This document shows, one piece after another, positions 4,177 through 22,781 of a stretch of 45,213 bases of DNA. Below the pieces are notes generated by a model. It had not been told where the DNA came from. It searched no databases and was given only the letters and a program-made list of their open reading frames with translations. Each line of letters opens with the position of its first letter. The first letter of the stretch is position 1. Both the position numbers and the translations under genes were made by a program. This DNA comes from a virus. Location of the stretch: the UHGV virus genome UHGV-0383844. One strand, 5' to 3'.

Positions 4177-4629
4177 ATGAAGAAAATGGAACAGTTAGCA
4201 AATGTAAAAGCGTTTTTATGCATGGTATTCGGAGCTATTGCAGGAGGTTTCGTAAACCTGATCGGAGGATGGTCCGAGGACTTGACTACATTACTTATTT
4301 TTATGGGAGTAGACTTTGTTCTCGGACTTCTGATTGCCGCCTTTTGGAAAAAGAGCAACAAATCAGAGAACGGGGCACTGAGCAGCTACTCTGCATGGAA
4401 AGGTCTGTGCAGAAAAGGGGTATCCCTACTGATCGTACTTATTGCATATCGGCTGGATGTTACTCTCGGCGTAGACTACATCCGTACAGCCGTGGTACTG
4501 GCATTTATAGCAAATGAGGGTATCTCGATTTTGGAAAATGTTGGAATTATGGGCGTGAAATATCCGGAAGCGTTAAAAAAAGCACTGGATGTTTTAACAA
4601 ATAAATCACAGGAGCAGGAGGGCGAGTAA
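4177..4629 (+). CDS. Holin (phage_holin_4_1-like; multiple TM segments, charged C-terminus)
   Basis: hydrophobic segments AFLCMVFGAIAGGFVNLIGGW, LLIFMGVDFVLGLLIAAFW, VSLLIVLIAY; position directly upstream of endolysin. Confidence 0.8.
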   Translation: MKKMEQLANVKAFLCMVFGAIAGGFVNLIGGWSEDLTTLLIFMGVDFVLGLLIAAFWKKSNKSENGALSSYSAWKGLCRKGVSLLIVLIAYRLDVTLGVDYIRTAVVLAFIANEGISILENVGIMGVKYPEALKKALDVLTNKSQEQEGE

Positions 4630-4666
4630 TCGTCCTTTTTTTATTGTGCGGAAAGGTGGTGAGAAC

Positions 4667-4756
4667 ATGAGCGAACAGAACGAATTCGGAAGAACAACAG
4701 CGGAAGAACTGGAAAAAGCATTTGAAACGGAAGAACAGGAGGAAGAGAAAGAATGA
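4667..4756 (+). CDS. Small acidic ORF (29 aa, MSEQNEFGRTTAEELEKAFETEEQEEEKE) overlapping endolysin start (ATGA)
   Basis: RBS aaaggtggtgagaacATG; may simply be the endolysin leader. Confidence 0.25.
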   Translation: MSEQNEFGRTTAEELEKAFETEEQEEEKE

Positions 4757-5559
4757 AAATTGGCTTAAGGGGAGGGCATTCCACAAATTGTAAAGGCGCG
4801 ATCGGTCTGATCGATGAGCAGGTAGAAGTACGGAAGATCTACAATGAGCTTGCGCCAATGCTACAGGCAGTCGGTCATACTGTGATTGATTGCAATTCCA
4901 ACGCATCCAATGTGTCCGGTGAGCTGGCAGACGGCACAAATAAGGCGAATAGTGTGGGGTGTGATATCTATGTCACCTTGCACATGAATGCAGCAGGAAC
5001 TGCGTCAGCGGGCGGTACAGAGGTGTGGTTATATGATGCATCCAATCCGACTATGAACACGATCGCAAGCAACATCTGCAAGAATTTTGCAGGAAAAGGG
5101 TTTGTGAATCGTGGAGTGAAATACAGTTCCGGCTATCACGATCTGAACGCATCGGACATGCCGGCTATGATCGTGGAGACATTATTTTGCACCGGAACAG
5201 ACGATGTGGCCAGATACAGGAGCTTAGGAGCGAGAGGGATTGCAGAGTTGATCGCAAAGGCGATCGACAGTAGAGCGTCTGCATGCAGCGAACAAAAAAA
5301 TAACCAGAATACAGGAATCGAACAGGAAGGAGAAGAAGAGATGAAATGTTTATTTACAGTAGAGGGAAAAGGTGCAGTGTATTATTTTGACGGTCAAAAA
5401 GTAATAACATTGGGTCATCCAGACGAATTAAAAATCATCCAGCAGATTTACAAGGACAACAATGGTAAGGACATGCCGTGTTACAAGTGGAGTCCTAAAG
5501 CGCCATGGTATGCAAGGCTCATGTCGGTAATTTACAGTAAAGAGACCACATCTATTTAA
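4753..5559 (+). CDS. Endolysin, N-acetylmuramoyl-L-alanine amidase (Amidase_3 / MurNAc-LAA) with unrecognised C-terminal binding domain
   Basis: MKIGLRGGHSTNCKGAIGLIDEQVEVRKIYNEL... matches Amidase_3 N-terminus; RBS ggaggaagagaaagaATG; follows holin. Confidence 0.9.
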   Translation: MKIGLRGGHSTNCKGAIGLIDEQVEVRKIYNELAPMLQAVGHTVIDCNSNASNVSGELADGTNKANSVGCDIYVTLHMNAAGTASAGGTEVWLYDASNPTMNTIASNICKNFAGKGFVNRGVKYSSGYHDLNASDMPAMIVETLFCTGTDDVARYRSLGARGIAELIAKAIDSRASACSEQKNNQNTGIEQEGEEEMKCLFTVEGKGAVYYFDGQKVITLGHPDELKIIQQIYKDNNGKDMPCYKWSPKAPWYARLMSVIYSKETTSI

Positions 5560-5566
5560 TAAAAAT

Positions 5567-5593
5567 CCCCTCGGAGATCAGCTCTCTGAGGGG
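5567..5593. terminator. 10-bp stem hairpin (cccctcggag...ctctgagggg); the T-run is on the minus-strand side
   Basis: inverted repeat seen directly; flanked by taataaaaat upstream on +. Confidence 0.35.
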
Positions 5594-5858
5594 AAATCCT
5601 TACAATTATTAGATAAATTCTCTGGATGCGTTTACATATCCAGATAAATGTGGTATTGTAAAGATGTCCAATACAGATGATGCTCTGTATTGCGGAAACT
5701 GGGCAAATCACAGTTTCACGGATTGAAATATTAGTAGTAACTTTAATACGAGATATTAAAGTTGCCGCACCTAATGGATGCTTTGGTGTGCGGTTCTGCC
5801 AGCAATTCCGGCGGACGCGGATTGAAATATTAACAGTATATTTAAAGCCAAAAGATAG

Positions 5859-5892
5859 GGATAAGCATTAAGCTTATCCTTTTATCTTGCAT
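5859..5892. terminator. Bidirectional intrinsic terminator (ggataagc-atta-gcttatcc) with U-runs on both strands, abutting the stop of the HTH gene
   Basis: perfect 8-bp inverted repeat; ttttatcttgcattttt on +, ctatcttttggcttt on -. Confidence 0.55.
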
Positions 5893-6370
5893 TTTTACCA
5901 GAGCTATAACAGTCATAAAAGCTATCTACAAGCATTGCAAGATCATCTGGTGTTAATTTGTCAAACAGTGTTTCCGGGATCCATTTATAGCTTTCATAAA
6001 AAGTACTTTCAAATTCTCCGATCTTACTTAGCTTTTTAATTTTCTGGTATTTGTCCATTCTTAAAAGATCATGTAAGTCCATTTCTCCATCTTTTATGGC
6101 TTTCTTCGCTTCGTTTGTAAAAATATTCAAGTCCAACTCCGACAATTCCCTAACATCGCATTCCAGTGCATCTGCTAGTGCGATTGCATTTCTAAGCATC
6201 ATTTTGCTTGTATCGTACTCTCCATACTCGTACTTTTGTATCTGCCGCAGGTTGATTCCAGATTTTTCTGCCAATTCTTTTTGCGTCATATTCATAAATT
6301 TTCTGAGTTCTTTTAATTCTGCCATGATTTTCTCCATTTCTCCCCGTAGCCGATAGGTCAGCATATGCAT
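5882..6370 (-). CDS. XRE-family HTH protein with ~90-aa C-terminal domain (Aca/AcrIIA1-like architecture); probable true start at 6325 (MAELKEL)
   Basis: MTQKELAEKSGINLRQIQKYEYGEYDTSKMMLRNAIALADALECDVRELSEL = HTH_XRE; SD ggagaaaatcATG before 6325; last gene of a translationally coupled 3-gene operon. Confidence 0.7.
   Translation of the reverse strand: MHMLTYRLRGEMEKIMAELKELRKFMNMTQKELAEKSGINLRQIQKYEYGEYDTSKMMLRNAIALADALECDVRELSELDLNIFTNEAKKAIKDGEMDLHDLLRMDKYQKIKKLSKIGEFESTFYESYKWIPETLFDKLTPDDLAMLVDSFYDCYSSGKNAR
6337..6362. repeat. 26-bp element gctgacctatcggctacggggagaaa (minus-strand orientation), exact inverted copy of 10791..10816
   Basis: exact match seen directly; sits 12 nt upstream of the HTH gene start. 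Confidence 0.9.
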
Positions 6371-6558
6371 TATATATGTCTCACGGTGATATTTTTTTCA
6401 ATTACTGGATAGTTGTCGATATTTGTTACTTCAACGACTTCATATTCATTGTAATCTTCCCACCCTAAAGTCAATTCTTTTCCGCTTTCATCAAAAAAGT
6501 TCTCCGGTCTCATTTCATCAAAAAAAGTTCTTTCCATGTAATTTCTTAAATTTTCCAT
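6370..6558 (-). CDS. Small very acidic hypothetical protein (62 aa)
   Basis: ORF with TAATG coupling to downstream HTH gene; E/D-rich composition. Confidence 0.5.
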   Translation of the reverse strand: MENLRNYMERTFFDEMRPENFFDESGKELTLGWEDYNEYEVVEVTNIDNYPVIEKNITVRHI

Positions 6559-6583
6559 TGTATTCTCTCCTTCCTATAATTCA

Positions 6584-7009
6584 TTATTTTCCGTAAACTT
6601 CGCTTAAAATTCTGTTACACATTGTGTTGTATCCGTGTCTAACATTAAAAAAGAGTTTCTGGTAGTATTTCTGGTATGTTGTTTCGTTGATTCCTTTCAG
6701 CAGATCAATTACAAGTCCGGCATTAGATTCGGAAATGATTCTGTTGTATCCCTCCTTGCAAGACTCCCACATGCTTACATTTTCCGGAAATCCTGCTTTG
6801 CAGTCTGCGATCAGTGCATCAAACTGCTCGTTCATTTTTTTGATCAGATCGTTTGCGAAGTTGATCTGTTTCTCTGTTCCTGTCATTTTTGTTCCACCTT
6901 TCTTTGCTTCATTCCACGCTTTCTTCAACGCTTCGGAGATTCCGAATCCTGCTTTTTTAACCAGTTCCCATGCTCTTCTCATAATTTTTGATAAGTTGTA
7001 TTTTTTCAT
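6584..7009 (-). CDS. Hypothetical protein (141 aa), first gene of accessory operon
   Basis: RBS aaaggagatacgaaaATG on minus strand; no family recognised. Confidence 0.5.
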   Translation of the reverse strand: MKKYNLSKIMRRAWELVKKAGFGISEALKKAWNEAKKGGTKMTGTEKQINFANDLIKKMNEQFDALIADCKAGFPENVSMWESCKEGYNRIISESNAGLVIDLLKGINETTYQKYYQKLFFNVRHGYNTMCNRILSEVYGK

Positions 7010-7043
7010 TTTTCGTATCTCCTTTGCTTTATCTTATGGTCTT

Positions 7044-7072
7044 ATTATACGCCCTAAGAGGCGTAAAGTCAA
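7044..7072 (-). promoter_or_regulatory. Sigma-A promoter TTGACT-17-TATAAT (minus strand) driving the 3-gene operon; inverted repeat acgcc-N6-ggcgt inside the spacer
   Basis: read on reverse complement: ttgactttacgcctcttagggcgtataat, ~35 nt upstream of ATG at 7009. Confidence 0.5.
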
Positions 7073-7164
7073 TAGGAAAACGAAAACTTTTTAAAATAAT
7101 TTCAAGCCCAGCAATCCATCCACTGTGATATAATAATATGTAGTCAATGTGAGGGAGAACAATT

Positions 7165-7344
7165 ATGGAATATCAGATCTACGAATCTTACGATACGTTT
7201 TTACTATACCAAGAGTTTATGGAGATACCAGGAAATACTTTTAAATTTCGGCTGCCAGTAGGTATGACTCTGACAACCGAAATGATGCACACCTTTTTAC
7301 GGGCTGCGTATATGAGTGTTGGACGGATGGATCTGCCGTCCTGA
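7165..7344 (+). CDS. Small hypothetical ORF (59 aa)
   Basis: RBS gtgagggagaacaattATG; below the 60-aa cutoff of the ORF track. Confidence 0.25.
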   Translation: MEYQIYESYDTFLLYQEFMEIPGNTFKFRLPVGMTLTTEMMHTFLRAAYMSVGRMDLPS

Positions 7345-7470
7345 ATATTGTATCAATCTTATTTTTATCAAAAAGTTACTACTTATTTAATGTGTATTAG
7401 TTGCATCTTAGATGTGCGAAAGAATACGCTCGTAAAAGATGCAGCTAATAAATATACTCCGAAAGCACCG

Positions 7471-9183: not shown

Positions 9184-9714
9184 TTATTGCACGGCGATTT
9201 TCTGAGTATCCTTCTTGTTGTCAAACGATATCATATCGGATGCTTCGATTGTGAGCTCAGTATCACTCTTCAATTTATATACCTGGCATACTTCAACCGT
9301 TCCGCCTGGCTGCACTTCATTTATAGCGTAATTGTTCATAGAGTCGTTCTGTTCTGCCATAATTCCCATTTCACACTCGCCACCGTCCTGAAAACACTGT
9401 ACGTTTGCAGCAATTCCAGCTGTTGCGTTTTCGTCCGAATTATTTGTAAAGGTATAATAGTAAAGCAGACATTTATTTCCCTCATAATCATTCGCAAATT
9501 CATGTCGTACATATTTTACATTAAATTTTTCTGCTGTAAAATCTATGATTCCGTCATCCACTGGCTGCGCTTCTTCTTTTGATTCTTCTTTCTGTTCTGC
9601 TGTGGATTCTGTTTTTGTCTCATTTCCCTTGGATGGCTCAGTATCTCCACCACACGCTGTAATAGATAATGTCATAGCTCCAACTAATAACATTGCTACA
9701 ATTTTCTTCTTCAT
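9184..9714 (-). CDS. Lipoprotein (signal peptide with lipobox LSITAC; beta-rich DUF4352/DUF5067-like body)
   Basis: MKKKIVAMLLVGAMTLSITACGG; located between int and repressor. Confidence 0.8.
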   Translation of the reverse strand: MKKKIVAMLLVGAMTLSITACGGDTEPSKGNETKTESTAEQKEESKEEAQPVDDGIIDFTAEKFNVKYVRHEFANDYEGNKCLLYYYTFTNNSDENATAGIAANVQCFQDGGECEMGIMAEQNDSMNNYAINEVQPGGTVEVCQVYKLKSDTELTIEASDMISFDNKKDTQKIAVQ

Positions 9715-22332: not shown

Positions 22333-22522
22333 TTAGTAGCATATCACGGTAAATATTAAAAATCCGGAATGCCGTGGAAGTGCTACGGAGTGATATCACA
22401 AAACGCAGATATCCGCAGATCTGCAAAACAAACAAAAATAGATTCAGCAATCTATATTTAGTGTAATCAGCGTACCCGAGTGCTGCGGATAGGGTAAAGG
22501 ATGTCAATAAAAGGCATCCTAT

Positions 22523-22595
22523 GGGTGTATAGCTCAGTTGGTAGAGCGATCGGCTTTTAACCGACGTGTCGCAGGTTCGAATCCTGCTATACCCA
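22523..22595 (+). tRNA. tRNA-Lys (anticodon TTT), 73 nt, no encoded CCA
   Basis: manual cloverleaf: acceptor gggtgta/tataccc (one G-U), D-arm gctc-agttggta-gagc, anticodon loop cTTTTaa, T-arm gcagg-ttcgaat-cctgc, discriminator A; A27-C43 mismatch at top of anticodon stem. Confidence 0.85.
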
Positions 22596-22781
22596 TTGTG
22601 GACTACTGCAAAGTTTCCTCCTTTTTTTCTTATAAATTTTGATTGTGTATTTGGTTATTTTGGTTTTTGTTGGCGTTATTAATTCTTTCAGCAGTAGTCC
22701 TAAATATTAAAAAAGTATAAATTAGCACTAAAGTGTTGTGGCTGCTAATTATGTGTGTTATATTCAGTATATAATTAAGAG

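What the first reader, a model, noticed from the sequence alone, without database searches (positions are those of the whole stretch)
5882..7072. Self-contained three-gene operon next to the endolysin with anti-CRISPR (acr-aca)-like architecture
On the minus strand a strong sigma-A promoter (TTGACT-17-TATAAT) carries an inverted repeat (acgcc-N6-ggcgt) in its spacer. It drives three translationally coupled genes: a 141-aa unknown protein, a 62-aa very acidic protein, and an HTH_XRE protein with an extra ~90-aa C-terminal domain. A terminator sits directly after its stop. The elements are small unknown, possibly DNA-mimic proteins, followed by an HTH autoregulator whose palindromic operator overlaps the promoter. 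The location is the accessory slot between lysin and integrase. This is the organisation of anti-CRISPR loci in Firmicutes prophages, e.g. Listeria acrIIA1, which is itself HTH+CTD and sits downstream of the lysin. It could equally encode another anti-defence or host-takeover function; none of the three proteins matched a family I recognise.
Basis: partly seen in the sequence, partly recalled or inferred. Interest (0 to 1): 0.8.

Follow-up and report, generated by a model that had tools for sequence, protein, structure and literature searches.

The report
Phage anti-CRISPR-like cassette with decoy RNA
A 1.5-kb add-on cassette in a gut-bacterium phage combines a self-repressed three-gene operon with an overlooked small RNA gene that imitates the host's type I-C CRISPR repeats, so it is most likely a new protein-plus-RNA way for phages to disarm CRISPR immunity.

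Summary
A near-consensus promoter (7072-7044, minus strand) with an inverted repeat in its spacer drives genes of 141, 62 and 147 aa, followed by a terminator. The genes are closely spaced, not overlapping.

It has its own promoter and two roughly 68-nt units. Each unit starts with GUC, forms two strongly covarying hairpins with kissing loops, and ends in CGGAUUGAAAU. That 11-mer is the exact type I-C crRNA handle.

The C-terminal domain (CTD) of the HTH protein is an uncharacterised family genetically locked to this RNA. The link holds even when the CTD stands alone, is fused to other DNA-binding domains, or sits beside a plain I-C repeat copy in a Bifidobacterium phage.

Operon and RNA together form one 1,525-bp insertion, absent from a related Mediterraneibacter gnavus phage. 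That host carries type I-C CRISPR.

The inverted repeat behaves like an operator, with symmetric arm changes tracking HTH divergence.

No homology to AcrIIA1 or any solved Acr was found.

Best reading: an autoregulated type I-C anti-CRISPR module of proteins plus a repeat-mimic RNA. No inhibition has been shown experimentally. I rate it a new variant of a known kind.

The parts
5595..7119 (.). The whole accessory cassette (RNA gene plus three-gene operon). It is one insertion relative to Mediterraneibacter gnavus phage RG-TP1.
   Evidence: blastn against PQ571303: about 90% identity over window 4653-5594 (endolysin and its hairpin), resuming at 7120-7365. The 1,525 bp in between are replaced by about 50 bp in RG-TP1.
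7044..7072 (-). Operon promoter TTGACT-17-TATAAT.
   Evidence: Matches 11 of 12 consensus positions. It sits at the same position in all homologous loci.
7048..7065 (-). Putative operator TACGCC-N6-GGCGTA, lying in the promoter spacer and overlapping the -10.
   Evidence: The arms are conserved while the 6-nt centre varies. Both arms change symmetrically in loci with divergent HTH proteins: ACGAC/GTCGT in L001 and TACGGC/GCCGTA in L235.
6584..7009 (-). g141. A basic, nearly invariant N-terminal helical hairpin (aa 1-37) joined to a helical-bundle C-terminal domain. Function unknown.
   Evidence: 213 homologues, with the N-module invariant and the C-terminal domains swapped. AF2 pLDDT 89.7. No Pfam, PHROG-function or PADLOC family. 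No PDB or BFVD structural relative.
6370..6558 (-). g62. A small, very acidic protein (pI 4.3) that is optional cargo in related cassettes. An Acr candidate.
   Evidence: Only 33 close homologues. Absent from L011, L016 and L218, and replaced by another small gene in L001. No family or PDB match. Charge.
5882..6325 (-). HTH-CTD gene (147 aa). An XRE-type HTH (about aa 1-65; putative autorepressor, Aca-like) fused to the conserved CTD (about aa 66-147; putative effector or RNA partner).
   Evidence: HTH_3 E = 2.6e-10. The HTH superposes on C.AhdI, P22 c2 and 434 Cro at about 1-2 A. The CTD family has 57 representatives, either stand-alone or fused to XRE, RelB-like (ribbon-helix-helix) or HTH_17 domains. 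The two domains occur as split, permuted genes in L026 and L030.
5857..5881 (.). Bidirectional intrinsic terminator shared by the operon (-) and the RNA gene (+).
   Evidence: Detected on both strands. Conserved in related loci.
5631..5659 (+). Promoter of the RNA gene: TTTACA-17-TATTGT with an extended -10 TG. The inferred start site is G5666.
   Evidence: -35/-10 hexamers (TTGACA or TTTACA, then TATTGT, TATTAT, TACAAT, TAAAAT and others) keep the same distance from the GTC start in 25 variants whose spacers differ.
5666..5732 (+). RNA unit 1. GUC, hairpin A (loop AUGAUGCU), GG, hairpin B (loop GGCAAAUCA), then ACGGAUUGAAAU (handle at 5719-5729).
   Evidence: Covariance-model hit of 75 bits. 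MFE fold. Covariation.
5739..5763 (+). A/T-rich hairpin between the two units (10-bp stem). It lies within the 34 nt that separate the unit-1 handle from unit 2.
   Evidence: Inverted repeat I15 and MFE fold. An equivalent A/T-rich hairpin follows the handle in other variants and in phage BigBern1.
5764..5831 (+). RNA unit 2. It has the same architecture as unit 1 with different stem sequences. Handle CGGAUUGAAAU at 5818-5828.
   Evidence: Covariance-model hit of 72 bits. Most related phages carry one unit and many carry two.
5566..5594 (.). Hairpin after the endolysin stop codon. It marks the left border of the cassette and is shared with RG-TP1.
7165..7344 (+). 59-aa ORF outside the cassette, with a strong ribosome-binding site. 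Homologue of RG-TP1 gp41. It lies in the stretch between the operon promoter and the integrase that should also hold attP.
   Evidence: 90% nucleotide identity to an annotated CDS in PQ571303. The prophage/phage pair L004/L005 places the attachment junction between the integrase and the first operon gene.

Best explanation
Window 5595-7119 is a mobile accessory cassette. [quoted passage not shown]

**Regulation.** A strong promoter drives g141, g62 and the HTH-CTD gene. The HTH domain, as a dimer, binds the palindrome TACGCC-N6-GGCGTA that lies across the promoter spacer and the -10. This shuts the operon down after an initial burst, which is Aca-type autorepression. The operator is shown at the sequence level; binding is inferred.

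**The RNA.** A separate promoter on the opposite strand makes a roughly 220-nt RNA that ends at the shared terminator. It holds two units. Each begins with GUC, as I-C repeats do. Each folds into two adjacent hairpins whose loops pair with one another. Each ends in a single-stranded CGGAUUGAAAU, the exact 11-nt 5' handle of I-C crRNAs. The structure is shown by covariation.

**Inferred action.** The RNA is taken up by Cas5c and Cascade subunits in place of genuine pre-crRNA. It could act as a decoy (Racr-like) or as a pseudo-guide (Cracr-like).

**The CTD.** This domain is always encoded beside the RNA. It is inferred to be the protein partner. It could be an Acr acting on the same system, or a protein that binds the kissing-loop domain of the RNA.

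**g62 and g141.** g62 (acidic, optional) and g141 (basic N-module plus swappable C-domain) are interchangeable cargo. They are candidate additional inhibitors. Their roles are unknown.
For: **The RNA gene is real.**
- Its promoter keeps the same position in 25 variants.
- The minimum-free-energy z-score is -4.75.
- Across 51 distinct units, 89.5% of cells are paired against 63% in shuffles (0 of 500 shuffles reach it).
- 17 of 22 pairs change on both sides.
- The kissing-loop pair 16-51 is GC in 34 units, UA in 13 and AU in 3. Single compensatory events occur in L259 and L261.
- No Rfam family matches.

**It resembles type I-C repeats.**
- Arrays next to Csd1/Cas8c-Cas7-Cas4-Cas1-Cas2 carry the repeat GTCGCTCCCCGCAAGGGGAGCGCGGATTGAAAT.
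- At least 120 metagenomic arrays, many from human gut, have 32-33-nt repeats of the form GTC-stem-loop-stem-GCGGATTGAAAT, with periods of 65-68.
- I-C solitary repeat units in phages and the tested inhibitor RacrIC1 are published (PMC10651486).

**The RNA is linked to the CTD.**
- All 35 loci with a CTD homologue have the motif. None of 7 loci with an HTH-only match, and none of 10 with only a weak HTH match, has it.
- About 69 of 81 units found by an RNA-only scan have a CTD gene within about 1.3 kb on the opposite strand.
- Stand-alone CTDs keep the RNA (L107, L155, L259, L180).
- Several distant CTDs found by protein search alone also have it nearby (L261, L262/L263, L264).
- Bifidobacterium phage BigBern1 has a plain I-C-type repeat copy, GTCTCCCCGCGAGGGGAGTGGATTGAAAT, about 530 bp from its CTD gene.

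**The operator.**

**It is one cassette.**

**The host fits.** The closest isolated phage infects M. gnavus. M. gnavus strains carry type I-C arrays with 34 +/- 1-bp spacers. Some spacers match temperate phages that infect anyway (PMC10072058).
Against: - There are no functional data of any kind.
- Apart from the GUC start and the last 11-12 nt, the unit does not resemble a I-C repeat. It has two hairpins with conserved 8-9-nt loops where a repeat has one short stem-loop. It was not among the unit strings searchable in the Racr supplement, part of which was truncated.
- Conserved loops and a dedicated partner protein could point to an RNA-protein function unrelated to Cas proteins.
- Three of the distant CTD loci examined had no RNA within 2.5 kb or within a short contig: L266/L267, L268/L269 and L260.
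- None of the three proteins matches a known Acr or Aca by sequence or fold.
- The CTD model has low confidence (pLDDT 55-63).
- The host of this particular window and its CRISPR type were not determined directly.
Confidence: 0.55

Rival explanations
1. The RNA is a pseudo-guide, not a decoy. After processing, the I-C handle plus the downstream tail is loaded into host Cascade. It then directs Cascade to a host promoter (cas genes or a CRISPR-guarded toxin, Cracr-type) or to competing phages (a viral mini-array giving superinfection exclusion). The CTD protein would act in synergy, for example as an Acr that spares complexes loaded with the viral RNA.
For: - In the window, exactly 34 nt separate the unit-1 handle from the GUC-hairpin of unit 2. 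This equals the M. gnavus I-C spacer length of 34 +/- 1.
- Hairpin A starts with GUC, like the 5' part of the next repeat.
- Tandem two-unit arrangements are common.
- Viral crRNA-like regulators, including I-C two-spacer arrays, and their association with the HTH-containing AcrIF24 are described (bioRxiv 10.1101/2024.10.29.618823).
Against: - Most phages carry a single unit.
- In other lineages the spacing between units is 39-132 nt.
- The tail is variable in length (23-45 nt). It folds into an A/T-rich hairpin, a perfect 10-bp stem in the window, which is unusual for a guide.
- No target could be searched for, because no host I-C locus was available.
Confidence: 0.2
2. The cassette has nothing to do with CRISPR. 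The kissing-loop RNA and the CTD would form an RNA-protein pair with another role in the lysogen. Possibilities are a toxin-antitoxin-like or addiction module, an RNA-controlled repressor switch, or a prophage-encoded exclusion system. The match to the I-C handle would be coincidental.
For: - The CTD is fused to many kinds of DNA-binding domain (XRE, RelB-like, HTH_17). This is the modular pattern of type II antitoxins and of ligand-sensing regulators.
- The conserved hairpin loops suggest sequence-specific recognition by a dedicated protein, not by Cas proteins.
- Some CTD loci lack the RNA.
- N-module proteins also head similar operons that have a different regulator and no RNA (L004-L006).
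Against: - A conserved single-stranded 11-mer identical to the I-C handle, placed directly 3' of a hairpin in an RNA that starts with GUC, is unlikely by chance. My own rough estimate is below 1e-4.
- Distant CTD genes sit beside plain I-C-type repeat copies that lack the extra hairpin (BigBern1, and the second unit in L264).
- No candidate toxin gene is consistently present.
- The arrangement differs from type III toxin-antitoxin systems, where the RNA repeats lie upstream of the toxin on the same strand.
Confidence: 0.2
3. The last gene is an AcrIIA1-type bifunctional Cas9 inhibitor, as the first reader suggested by analogy, and the operon is a type II-A acr locus.
For: Only the shared logic: an N-terminal HTH autorepressor plus a C-terminal extra domain, downstream of the lysin in a Firmicutes prophage.
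Against: - No sequence match to AcrIIA1 or any other solved Acr at E <= 10.
- The CTD profile finds no PDB relative.
- Foldseek's top 50 hits are generic XRE repressors. The only Acr-related hit is the HTH domain of AcrIIA15, at E = 0.73.
- The linked RNA carries a type I-C handle, not a type II one.
Confidence: 0.03

Closest known systems
Racr RNA anti-CRISPRs / viral solitary repeat units, in particular RacrIC1 next to acrIC5 in a Bifidobacterium prophage (Camara-Wilpert et al. 2023, PMC10651486)
   Same: - A small non-coding RNA encoded by a phage.
- It has its own nearby promoter and no cas genes around it.
- It carries CRISPR-repeat features of the subtype found in the host group (I-C).
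- It is encoded next to small acr-like genes and a DNA-binding regulator.
   Different: - Only the GUC start and the 11-12-nt handle match a I-C repeat.
- The single repeat hairpin is replaced by two hairpins with conserved, mutually complementary loops.
- Units often occur in tandem.
- The RNA is convergent with the operon and shares a terminator, not co-transcribed with it.
- It is tied to one particular protein domain.
- Activity is untested.
Cracr / viral crRNA-like regulatory RNAs associated with AcrIF24 (bioRxiv 10.1101/2024.10.29.618823)
   Same: - A viral crRNA-like RNA coupled to an Acr protein that carries an HTH domain.
- Multiplexed array-like units.
- I-C examples are reported.
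   Different: - No pseudo-spacer with a recognisable target was identified here.
- The tails are structured and variable in length.
- The partner protein family is unrelated by sequence.
- Membership cannot be tested without host I-C loci.
acr-aca operons with Aca autorepression, and Aca-Acr fusion proteins (AcrIIA1, AcrIIA13-15, AcrIF24). The comparison rests on general knowledge of these systems.
   Same: - A strong promoter with a palindromic operator overlapping it.
- Variable small cargo genes.
- A terminal HTH protein with an extra domain that also exists on its own.
- Location in the prophage accessory slot.
   Different: - No detectable sequence or structural homology to any named Aca or Acr.
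- The extra domain is linked to an RNA gene.
Genuine type I-C CRISPR repeats (for example GTCGCTCCCCTCGCGGGAGCGCGGATTGAAAT in gut metagenomes)
   Same: - The GTC start.
- A stem-loop immediately before the last 11 nt.
- An identical CGGATTGAAAT handle.
   Different: - No spacers at 65-68-nt periodicity and no adjacent cas genes.
- The internal sequence and length differ (68 nt against 32-33 nt).
- The two copies in the window have different stems.

Membership tests
acr-aca operon | A DNA-binding (HTH or RHH) regulator gene co-transcribed with small genes of unknown function on a mobile element. | tested here: met
   HTH_3 domain in the last gene. One promoter and one terminator bracket the three genes. 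The window is a phage genome. The same layout occurs in more than 40 related loci.
acr-aca operon | An inverted-repeat operator in or overlapping the acr promoter, bound by the Aca protein to repress transcription. | tested here: inconclusive
   The operator-like palindrome is present and conserved, and its two arms co-vary symmetrically with HTH divergence. Binding and repression cannot be tested with these tools.
acr-aca operon | At least one gene product inhibits a CRISPR-Cas system. | not testable with these tools
   No homology to known Acrs. This needs phage or plasmid targeting assays.
AcrIIA1 family | Sequence or structural homology to the AcrIIA1 N-terminal and C-terminal domains. | tested here: not met
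   phmmer against all PDB chains at E <= 10 gives no AcrIIA1 hit. The CTD profile against the PDB finds nothing. Foldseek's top 50 contains no AcrIIA1. The CTD model itself has low confidence.
Racr / solitary repeat unit (type I-C) | Similarity in sequence and hairpin structure to the CRISPR repeat of a defined subtype. | tested here: inconclusive
   The GUC start and the last 11-12 nt are identical to I-C repeats, and a hairpin directly precedes the handle. The rest differs, with two hairpins and 68 nt against 32-33 nt. A BLAST-type full-repeat criterion would fail. Distant relatives of the locus do carry plain I-C-type repeat copies.
Racr / solitary repeat unit (type I-C) | Encoded on a virus or plasmid, not next to cas genes, with a promoter within about 250 bp. 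| tested here: met
   The promoter at 5631-5659 ends 7 nt before the unit. The neighbouring genes are the lysin, the operon and the integrase.
Racr / solitary repeat unit (type I-C) | The host carries the cognate CRISPR-Cas subtype. | not testable with these tools
   The host of this window is not given. The nearest isolated phage infects M. gnavus. M. gnavus strains have type I-C systems (PMC10072058). Other copies lie in Lachnospiraceae genomes.
Racr / solitary repeat unit (type I-C) | Expression inhibits CRISPR interference by sequestering Cas proteins. | not testable with these tools
   Requires experiments.
Cracr (viral crRNA-like regulator) | A pseudo-spacer with PAM-proximal complementarity to a host cas or toxin promoter, flanked by repeat-like sequence. 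| not tested
The 34-nt spacing in the window is suggestive only.
Any Rfam family | A covariance-model match at or near the gathering score. | tested here: not met
   Nothing matches the units in the window or in nine related loci. The best overlapping hit is cow-rumen-3 at 14.6 bits against a gathering score of 86.7.
Type III toxin-antitoxin system | Tandem RNA repeats directly upstream of, and co-oriented with, an endoribonuclease toxin gene. | tested here: not met
   In the Lachnospiraceae phage set the RNA is convergent with the protein genes and has its own promoter. No toxin family was detected.

The most novel reading that the evidence does not exclude
The cassette encodes a ribonucleoprotein anti-CRISPR. 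The CTD is a dedicated RNA-binding protein that recognises the kissing-loop domain of the RNA. The exposed I-C handle recruits Cas5c or Cascade subunits. The RNP then traps or reprogrammes the host's type I-C machinery. The widespread fusion of the CTD to Aca-like DNA-binding domains would couple this activity to autoregulation. This would be the first protein-assisted RNA anti-CRISPR. It would also explain why M. gnavus temperate phages infect strains that carry perfectly matching I-C spacers.
Probability: 0.25. Interest if true: 0.9.

Novelty: new variant of a known kind. Interest (0 to 1): 0.8.

Why it matters
**Field context.** RNA-based anti-CRISPRs and crRNA-like viral regulators were described only recently, and almost all tested cases come from Proteobacteria.

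**What is new here.** It has a distinct, strongly covarying architecture: two hairpins with kissing loops followed by an exact I-C handle. It is strictly linked to an uncharacterised protein domain that is repeatedly fused to Aca-like regulators.

**If it is functional, it would:**
- give a testable answer to why Mediterraneibacter gnavus phages escape matching type I-C spacers;
- add a protein family and an RNA family to anti-defence catalogues, since neither is in Pfam, PADLOC or Rfam;
- provide compact inhibitors or modulators for type I-C genome-editing tools;
- show that protein-centred acr searches miss half of such loci.

Tried and rejected
- **Weak AcrIE7 similarity of g141 aa 42-79.** E = 0.3 with a single sequence and 0.2 with a family profile. 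Not significant.
- **Fold searches.** Foldseek of the confident g141 model against the PDB and BFVD gave no informative relative. Foldseek of HTH-CTD matched only through the HTH.
- **CTD hits to 2,839-aa and 4,514-aa proteins.** These are surface proteins with Listeria-Bacteroides repeats. The match comes from an LRR-like 'IPxxxFDKLT' motif and is spurious.
- **Genome-collection scan with ATTTCAATCCGYGN{25,42}AGCATC.** Too loose: most of the 120 hits were single chance matches. It still gave three true I-C arrays and six real copies in named Lachnospiraceae, Clostridia and Bacilli genomes.
- **Sub-threshold Rfam hits.** His_leader, trpB and cow-rumen-3 are explained by terminator-like hairpins.
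- **The 64-aa ORF at 5677-5871 (+) overlapping the RNA.** Rejected as coding. It has no ribosome-binding site, it is broken in single-unit loci, and substitutions are compensatory in stems.
- **Pairing of loop B with the handle as an alternative to loop-loop pairing.** Possible in some variants. Covariation at pair 16-51 favours loop A with loop B.
- **A 15-nt near-repeat: 5730-5744 against the opposite strand at 7372-7386.** Within chance expectation for this region, so not pursued.
- **Sequences of AcrIC5 and RacrIC1.** Not retrievable from the held papers, so direct comparison was impossible.
- **CTD search in the word-indexed protein database.** It returned only 7 proteins. This limited the alignment depth for the structure prediction.
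Full report
**1. Context.** The 45-kb window is a temperate siphovirus-type genome, read in permuted order.
- Tail genes, a Phage_holin_4_1 holin (4177-4629) and an Amidase_3 endolysin (4753-5559) lie on the + strand.
- On the - strand come the finding, then a large serine recombinase (9003-7471), a DUF5067 lipoprotein and a CI-like repressor.
- After these come the early, packaging and head-tail genes.

**2. The observation.**
- The promoter TTGACT-17-TATAAT lies at 7072-7044.
- The palindrome TACGCC-N6-GGCGTA lies at 7065-7048, across the spacer and the start of the -10.
- The three genes are g141 (7009-6584), g62 (6558-6370) and an HTH gene.
- A terminator lies at 5879-5859.

Three corrections apply.
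- The HTH gene starts at ATG 6325 (147 aa), as its homologues do.
- The genes are separated by 25 and 44 nt, each with its own ribosome-binding site, so they are not strictly translationally coupled.
- Only g62 is acidic (pI 4.3). g141 is basic (pI 9.5).

None of the proteins has a Pfam, functional PHROG or PADLOC family apart from the HTH_3 domain.

**3. The operator.** In every related locus the same promoter carries the same palindrome arms around a variable 6-nt centre (TCTTAG, TTATAA, TTGCAA, AATATT, TATATA). Where the HTH protein is more divergent, both arms change symmetrically.
- L001 (52% identical HTH) has ACGAC-ATATAT-GTCGT.
- L235 has TACGGC-N6-GCCGTA, and there the operator-promoter occurs twice.

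This is the signature of a dimeric repressor site that occludes the promoter. Autorepression is therefore well supported at the sequence level, although binding has not been shown.

Two similar roughly 68-nt units lie between the HTH stop codon and the endolysin. Read on the + strand, they are preceded by TTTACA-17-TATTGT with an extended -10 (5631-5659). They are followed by the shared bidirectional terminator.

Across 25 and then 45 sequence variants from related phages, three things hold.
- The -35 and -10 hexamers stay at a fixed distance from the first base of the unit, while the spacer sequences differ.
- The RNA starts with GUC.
- The architecture is constant: GUC, hairpin A (loop nnGAUGCU), NGG, hairpin B (loop AGCAAUYC-like), then single-stranded RCGGAUUGAAAUA, an A/T-rich hairpin and the terminator.

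The quantitative support is as follows.
- The 223-nt window RNA folds with z = -4.75.
- A covariance model finds exactly two units in the window, at 5666-5732 and 5764-5831.
- On 51 distinct units, 89.5% of cells pair against 63.1% in shuffles (0 of 500 shuffles reach it), and 17 of 22 pairs change on both sides.
- Sliding the 3' partners by one to three columns collapses the signal.

The stems in that alignment were fitted by the model. The loop-loop helix was not, and it is 92% paired.
- Pair 16-51 switches between G-C (34 units), U-A (13) and A-U (3).
- Two further compensatory events occur in distant copies: GAUGUU with AACAAUUCC in L259, and GACGCU with GGCGAUC in L261.

Rfam 15 has no matching family.

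**5. Resemblance to type I-C CRISPR repeats.** The last 11 nt of each unit, CGGAUUGAAAU, are identical to the 3' end of genuine repeats.
- One such repeat, GTCGCTCCCCGCAAGGGGAGCGCGGATTGAAAT, sits next to Csd1/Cas8c-Cas7-Cas4-Cas1-Cas2.
- At least 120 metagenomic arrays, many from human gut, have 32-33-nt repeats of the form GTC-stem-loop-stem-GCGGATTGAAAT with 65-68-nt periods.

In type I-C, Cas5c cuts at the 3' base of the repeat hairpin, and those 11 nt become the crRNA 5' handle (established knowledge). A unit therefore looks like a I-C repeat whose ends are kept: the GUC start, and a hairpin followed by the handle. The middle is replaced by a two-hairpin, kissing-loop domain.

Phage-encoded solitary I-C repeats exist, and one of them, RacrIC1, inhibits I-C interference (PMC10651486). 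None of my unit strings occurs in the stored part of that paper's tables.

**6. The RNA is locked to the C-terminal domain, not to the HTH.** Four lines of evidence support this.
- Among loci found with the protein, all 35 with a CTD match have the motif. None of the 7 with an HTH-only match has it, and none of 10 with a weak HTH match.
- In a scan for the RNA alone, about 69 of 81 real units have a CTD gene within about 1.3 kb, always on the opposite strand.
- The two domains separate freely:
  - The CTD stands alone in L107, L155, L259 and the 57-80-kb phages, where an RHH gene heads the operon.
  - CTD and HTH are split and permuted in L026 and L030.
  - Elsewhere the CTD is fused to XRE, RelB-like, HTH_17 or zinc-ribbon N-termini.
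- Distant CTDs found purely by protein similarity again have the RNA nearby:
  - L261 scores 62.6 bits, L262/L263 score 61 bits, and L264 has a weak unit plus a plain repeat copy GTCACCCGTC...GACGGGTGTGGATTGAAAC.
  - Bifidobacterium phage BigBern1 has an ordinary I-C-type solitary repeat, GTCTCCCCGCGAGGGGAGTGGATTGAAAT, about 530 bp from its CTD-like gene, next to its integrase.
  - Three other loci (L266/L267, L268/L269, L260) had none within the DNA available.

The CTD has no Pfam family and no solved relative. Its AlphaFold model has low confidence.

**7. One cassette.** The closest isolated phage, M. gnavus phage RG-TP1, is about 90% identical through the endolysin up to window 5594, and again from 7120 (a 59-aa ORF, gp41). 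It has about 50 bp where the window has 1,525 bp. The RNA gene and the operon were therefore gained or lost together.

Other copies lie in Lachnospiraceae, Marvinbryantia, Bariatricus and Cottocaccamicrobium genomes. M. gnavus strains carry type I-C arrays with 34 +/- 1-bp spacers. Some spacers match temperate phages that still infect, and the authors of that study suspected anti-CRISPRs (PMC10072058).

**8. The other two proteins.**
- g141 folds confidently (pLDDT 89.7) into a basic helical hairpin (aa 6-36) plus a helical bundle. It has no structural relative in the PDB or BFVD.
- Its first 37 residues are nearly invariant across 213 homologues, while the C-terminal domain is swapped. The C-domain also exists alone, next to an RNA unit, in L099.
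- N-module proteins also head analogous operons with a different operator and a MazE/AbrB-like last gene and no RNA (L004-L006).
- g62 has only 33 close homologues. It is optional: absent in L011, L016 and L218, and replaced in L001.
- Both behave as exchangeable cargo. Their functions are unknown.

**9. Interpretation.** I take two things as shown:
- a conserved, probably autorepressed accessory operon;
- a real, structured RNA gene carrying the I-C handle, tied to the CTD family, with the RNA gene and the operon forming a single mobile cassette.

I infer that the RNA engages I-C Cas proteins as a decoy or pseudo-guide, and that the CTD is its protein partner or a co-acting Acr. g62 and g141 may be further inhibitors.

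I give the anti-CRISPR reading 0.55. The rivals are:
- a guide-type use of host Cascade (0.2);
- a CRISPR-unrelated RNA-protein module (0.2);
- the AcrIIA1/Cas9 analogy (0.03), which fails its homology test.

**10. Comparison with known systems and novelty.** The locus works like an acr-aca operon joined to a Racr or Cracr gene. It is not a demonstrable member of any named Acr, Aca or RNA family.
- The RNA architecture and the CTD linkage are not in Rfam, Pfam or PADLOC.
- I did not find them in the papers I could search.

I rate it a new variant of a known kind, of high interest, pending the expression and interference assays listed under next steps.

Noticed in passing
window 22522-22596 (+): The phage encodes a tRNA-Lys with anticodon UUU (ARAGORN). 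Phage tRNA-Lys genes can compensate for host anticodon nucleases. This may be a second counter-defence feature.
   Followed up: no
window 6899-7009 (aa 1-37 of g141); alignment A1: The N-terminal 37 residues (MKKYNLSKIMKRAWELVKKAGFGISEALKKAWKEAK) are nearly invariant across more than 200 proteins whose C-terminal domains are unrelated. The module is strongly basic (net +8). It could be a shared nucleic-acid-binding or targeting module, or a recombination 'head' for swapping cargo.
   Followed up: partly
window 7165-7344 (+): A 59-aa ORF with a strong ribosome-binding site, 90% identical at the DNA level to the annotated gp41 of M. gnavus phage RG-TP1. It lies between the cassette and the integrase, and has no family.
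   Followed up: partly
window 7072-7470; L004 vs L005: In a related prophage/phage pair, the host junction lies between the integrase stop codon and the first operon gene. The window's attP should therefore be in this roughly 400-bp stretch, and in the lysogen the cassette would sit at the very end of the prophage.
   Followed up: no
L005 4930-6700: An analogous operon headed by an N-module protein. It has two promoters that share a different spacer element (ATTGGKGACGAATGAT) and ends in a MazE/AbrB-like 60-aa gene instead of an HTH. The layout is the same but the regulator differs, and there is no RNA unit.
   Followed up: no
L234 438-506 (-): A type II hammerhead ribozyme (67.9 bits, above the gathering score) in a phage contig that also carries the RNA units.
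   Followed up: no
L244 48-132 (+): Two CRISPR-DR3-like 30-nt repeats spaced 55 nt apart (30-32 bits, below the gathering score of 41). They lie about 700 nt from an RNA unit in a 60-kb phage contig and may be a viral mini-array.
   Followed up: no
window 9184-9714 (-): A DUF5067 lipoprotein gene (signal peptide and lipobox-like N-terminus) lies between the integrase and the CI-like repressor. This is a typical lysogenic-conversion or exclusion position.
   Followed up: no
window 5730-5744 (+) and 7372-7386 (opposite strand): The first 15 nt after the unit-1 handle recur (14 of 15) in inverted orientation just downstream of the integrase gene. This is within chance expectation for a region of this size, but it lies in the presumed attP region.
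   Followed up: no
L001 1304-2368; L004 9300-10465: Related phages carry reverse-transcriptase (RVT_1) genes just upstream of the lysis genes. These are probably diversity-generating retroelements acting on tail genes.
   Followed up: no
L070 2419-2486 (-): In one Lachnospiraceae genome a second, more degenerate RNA unit (AUC start, handle followed by AAAAGCA) lies upstream of the HTH-CTD gene. Unit position is therefore not fixed.
   Followed up: no
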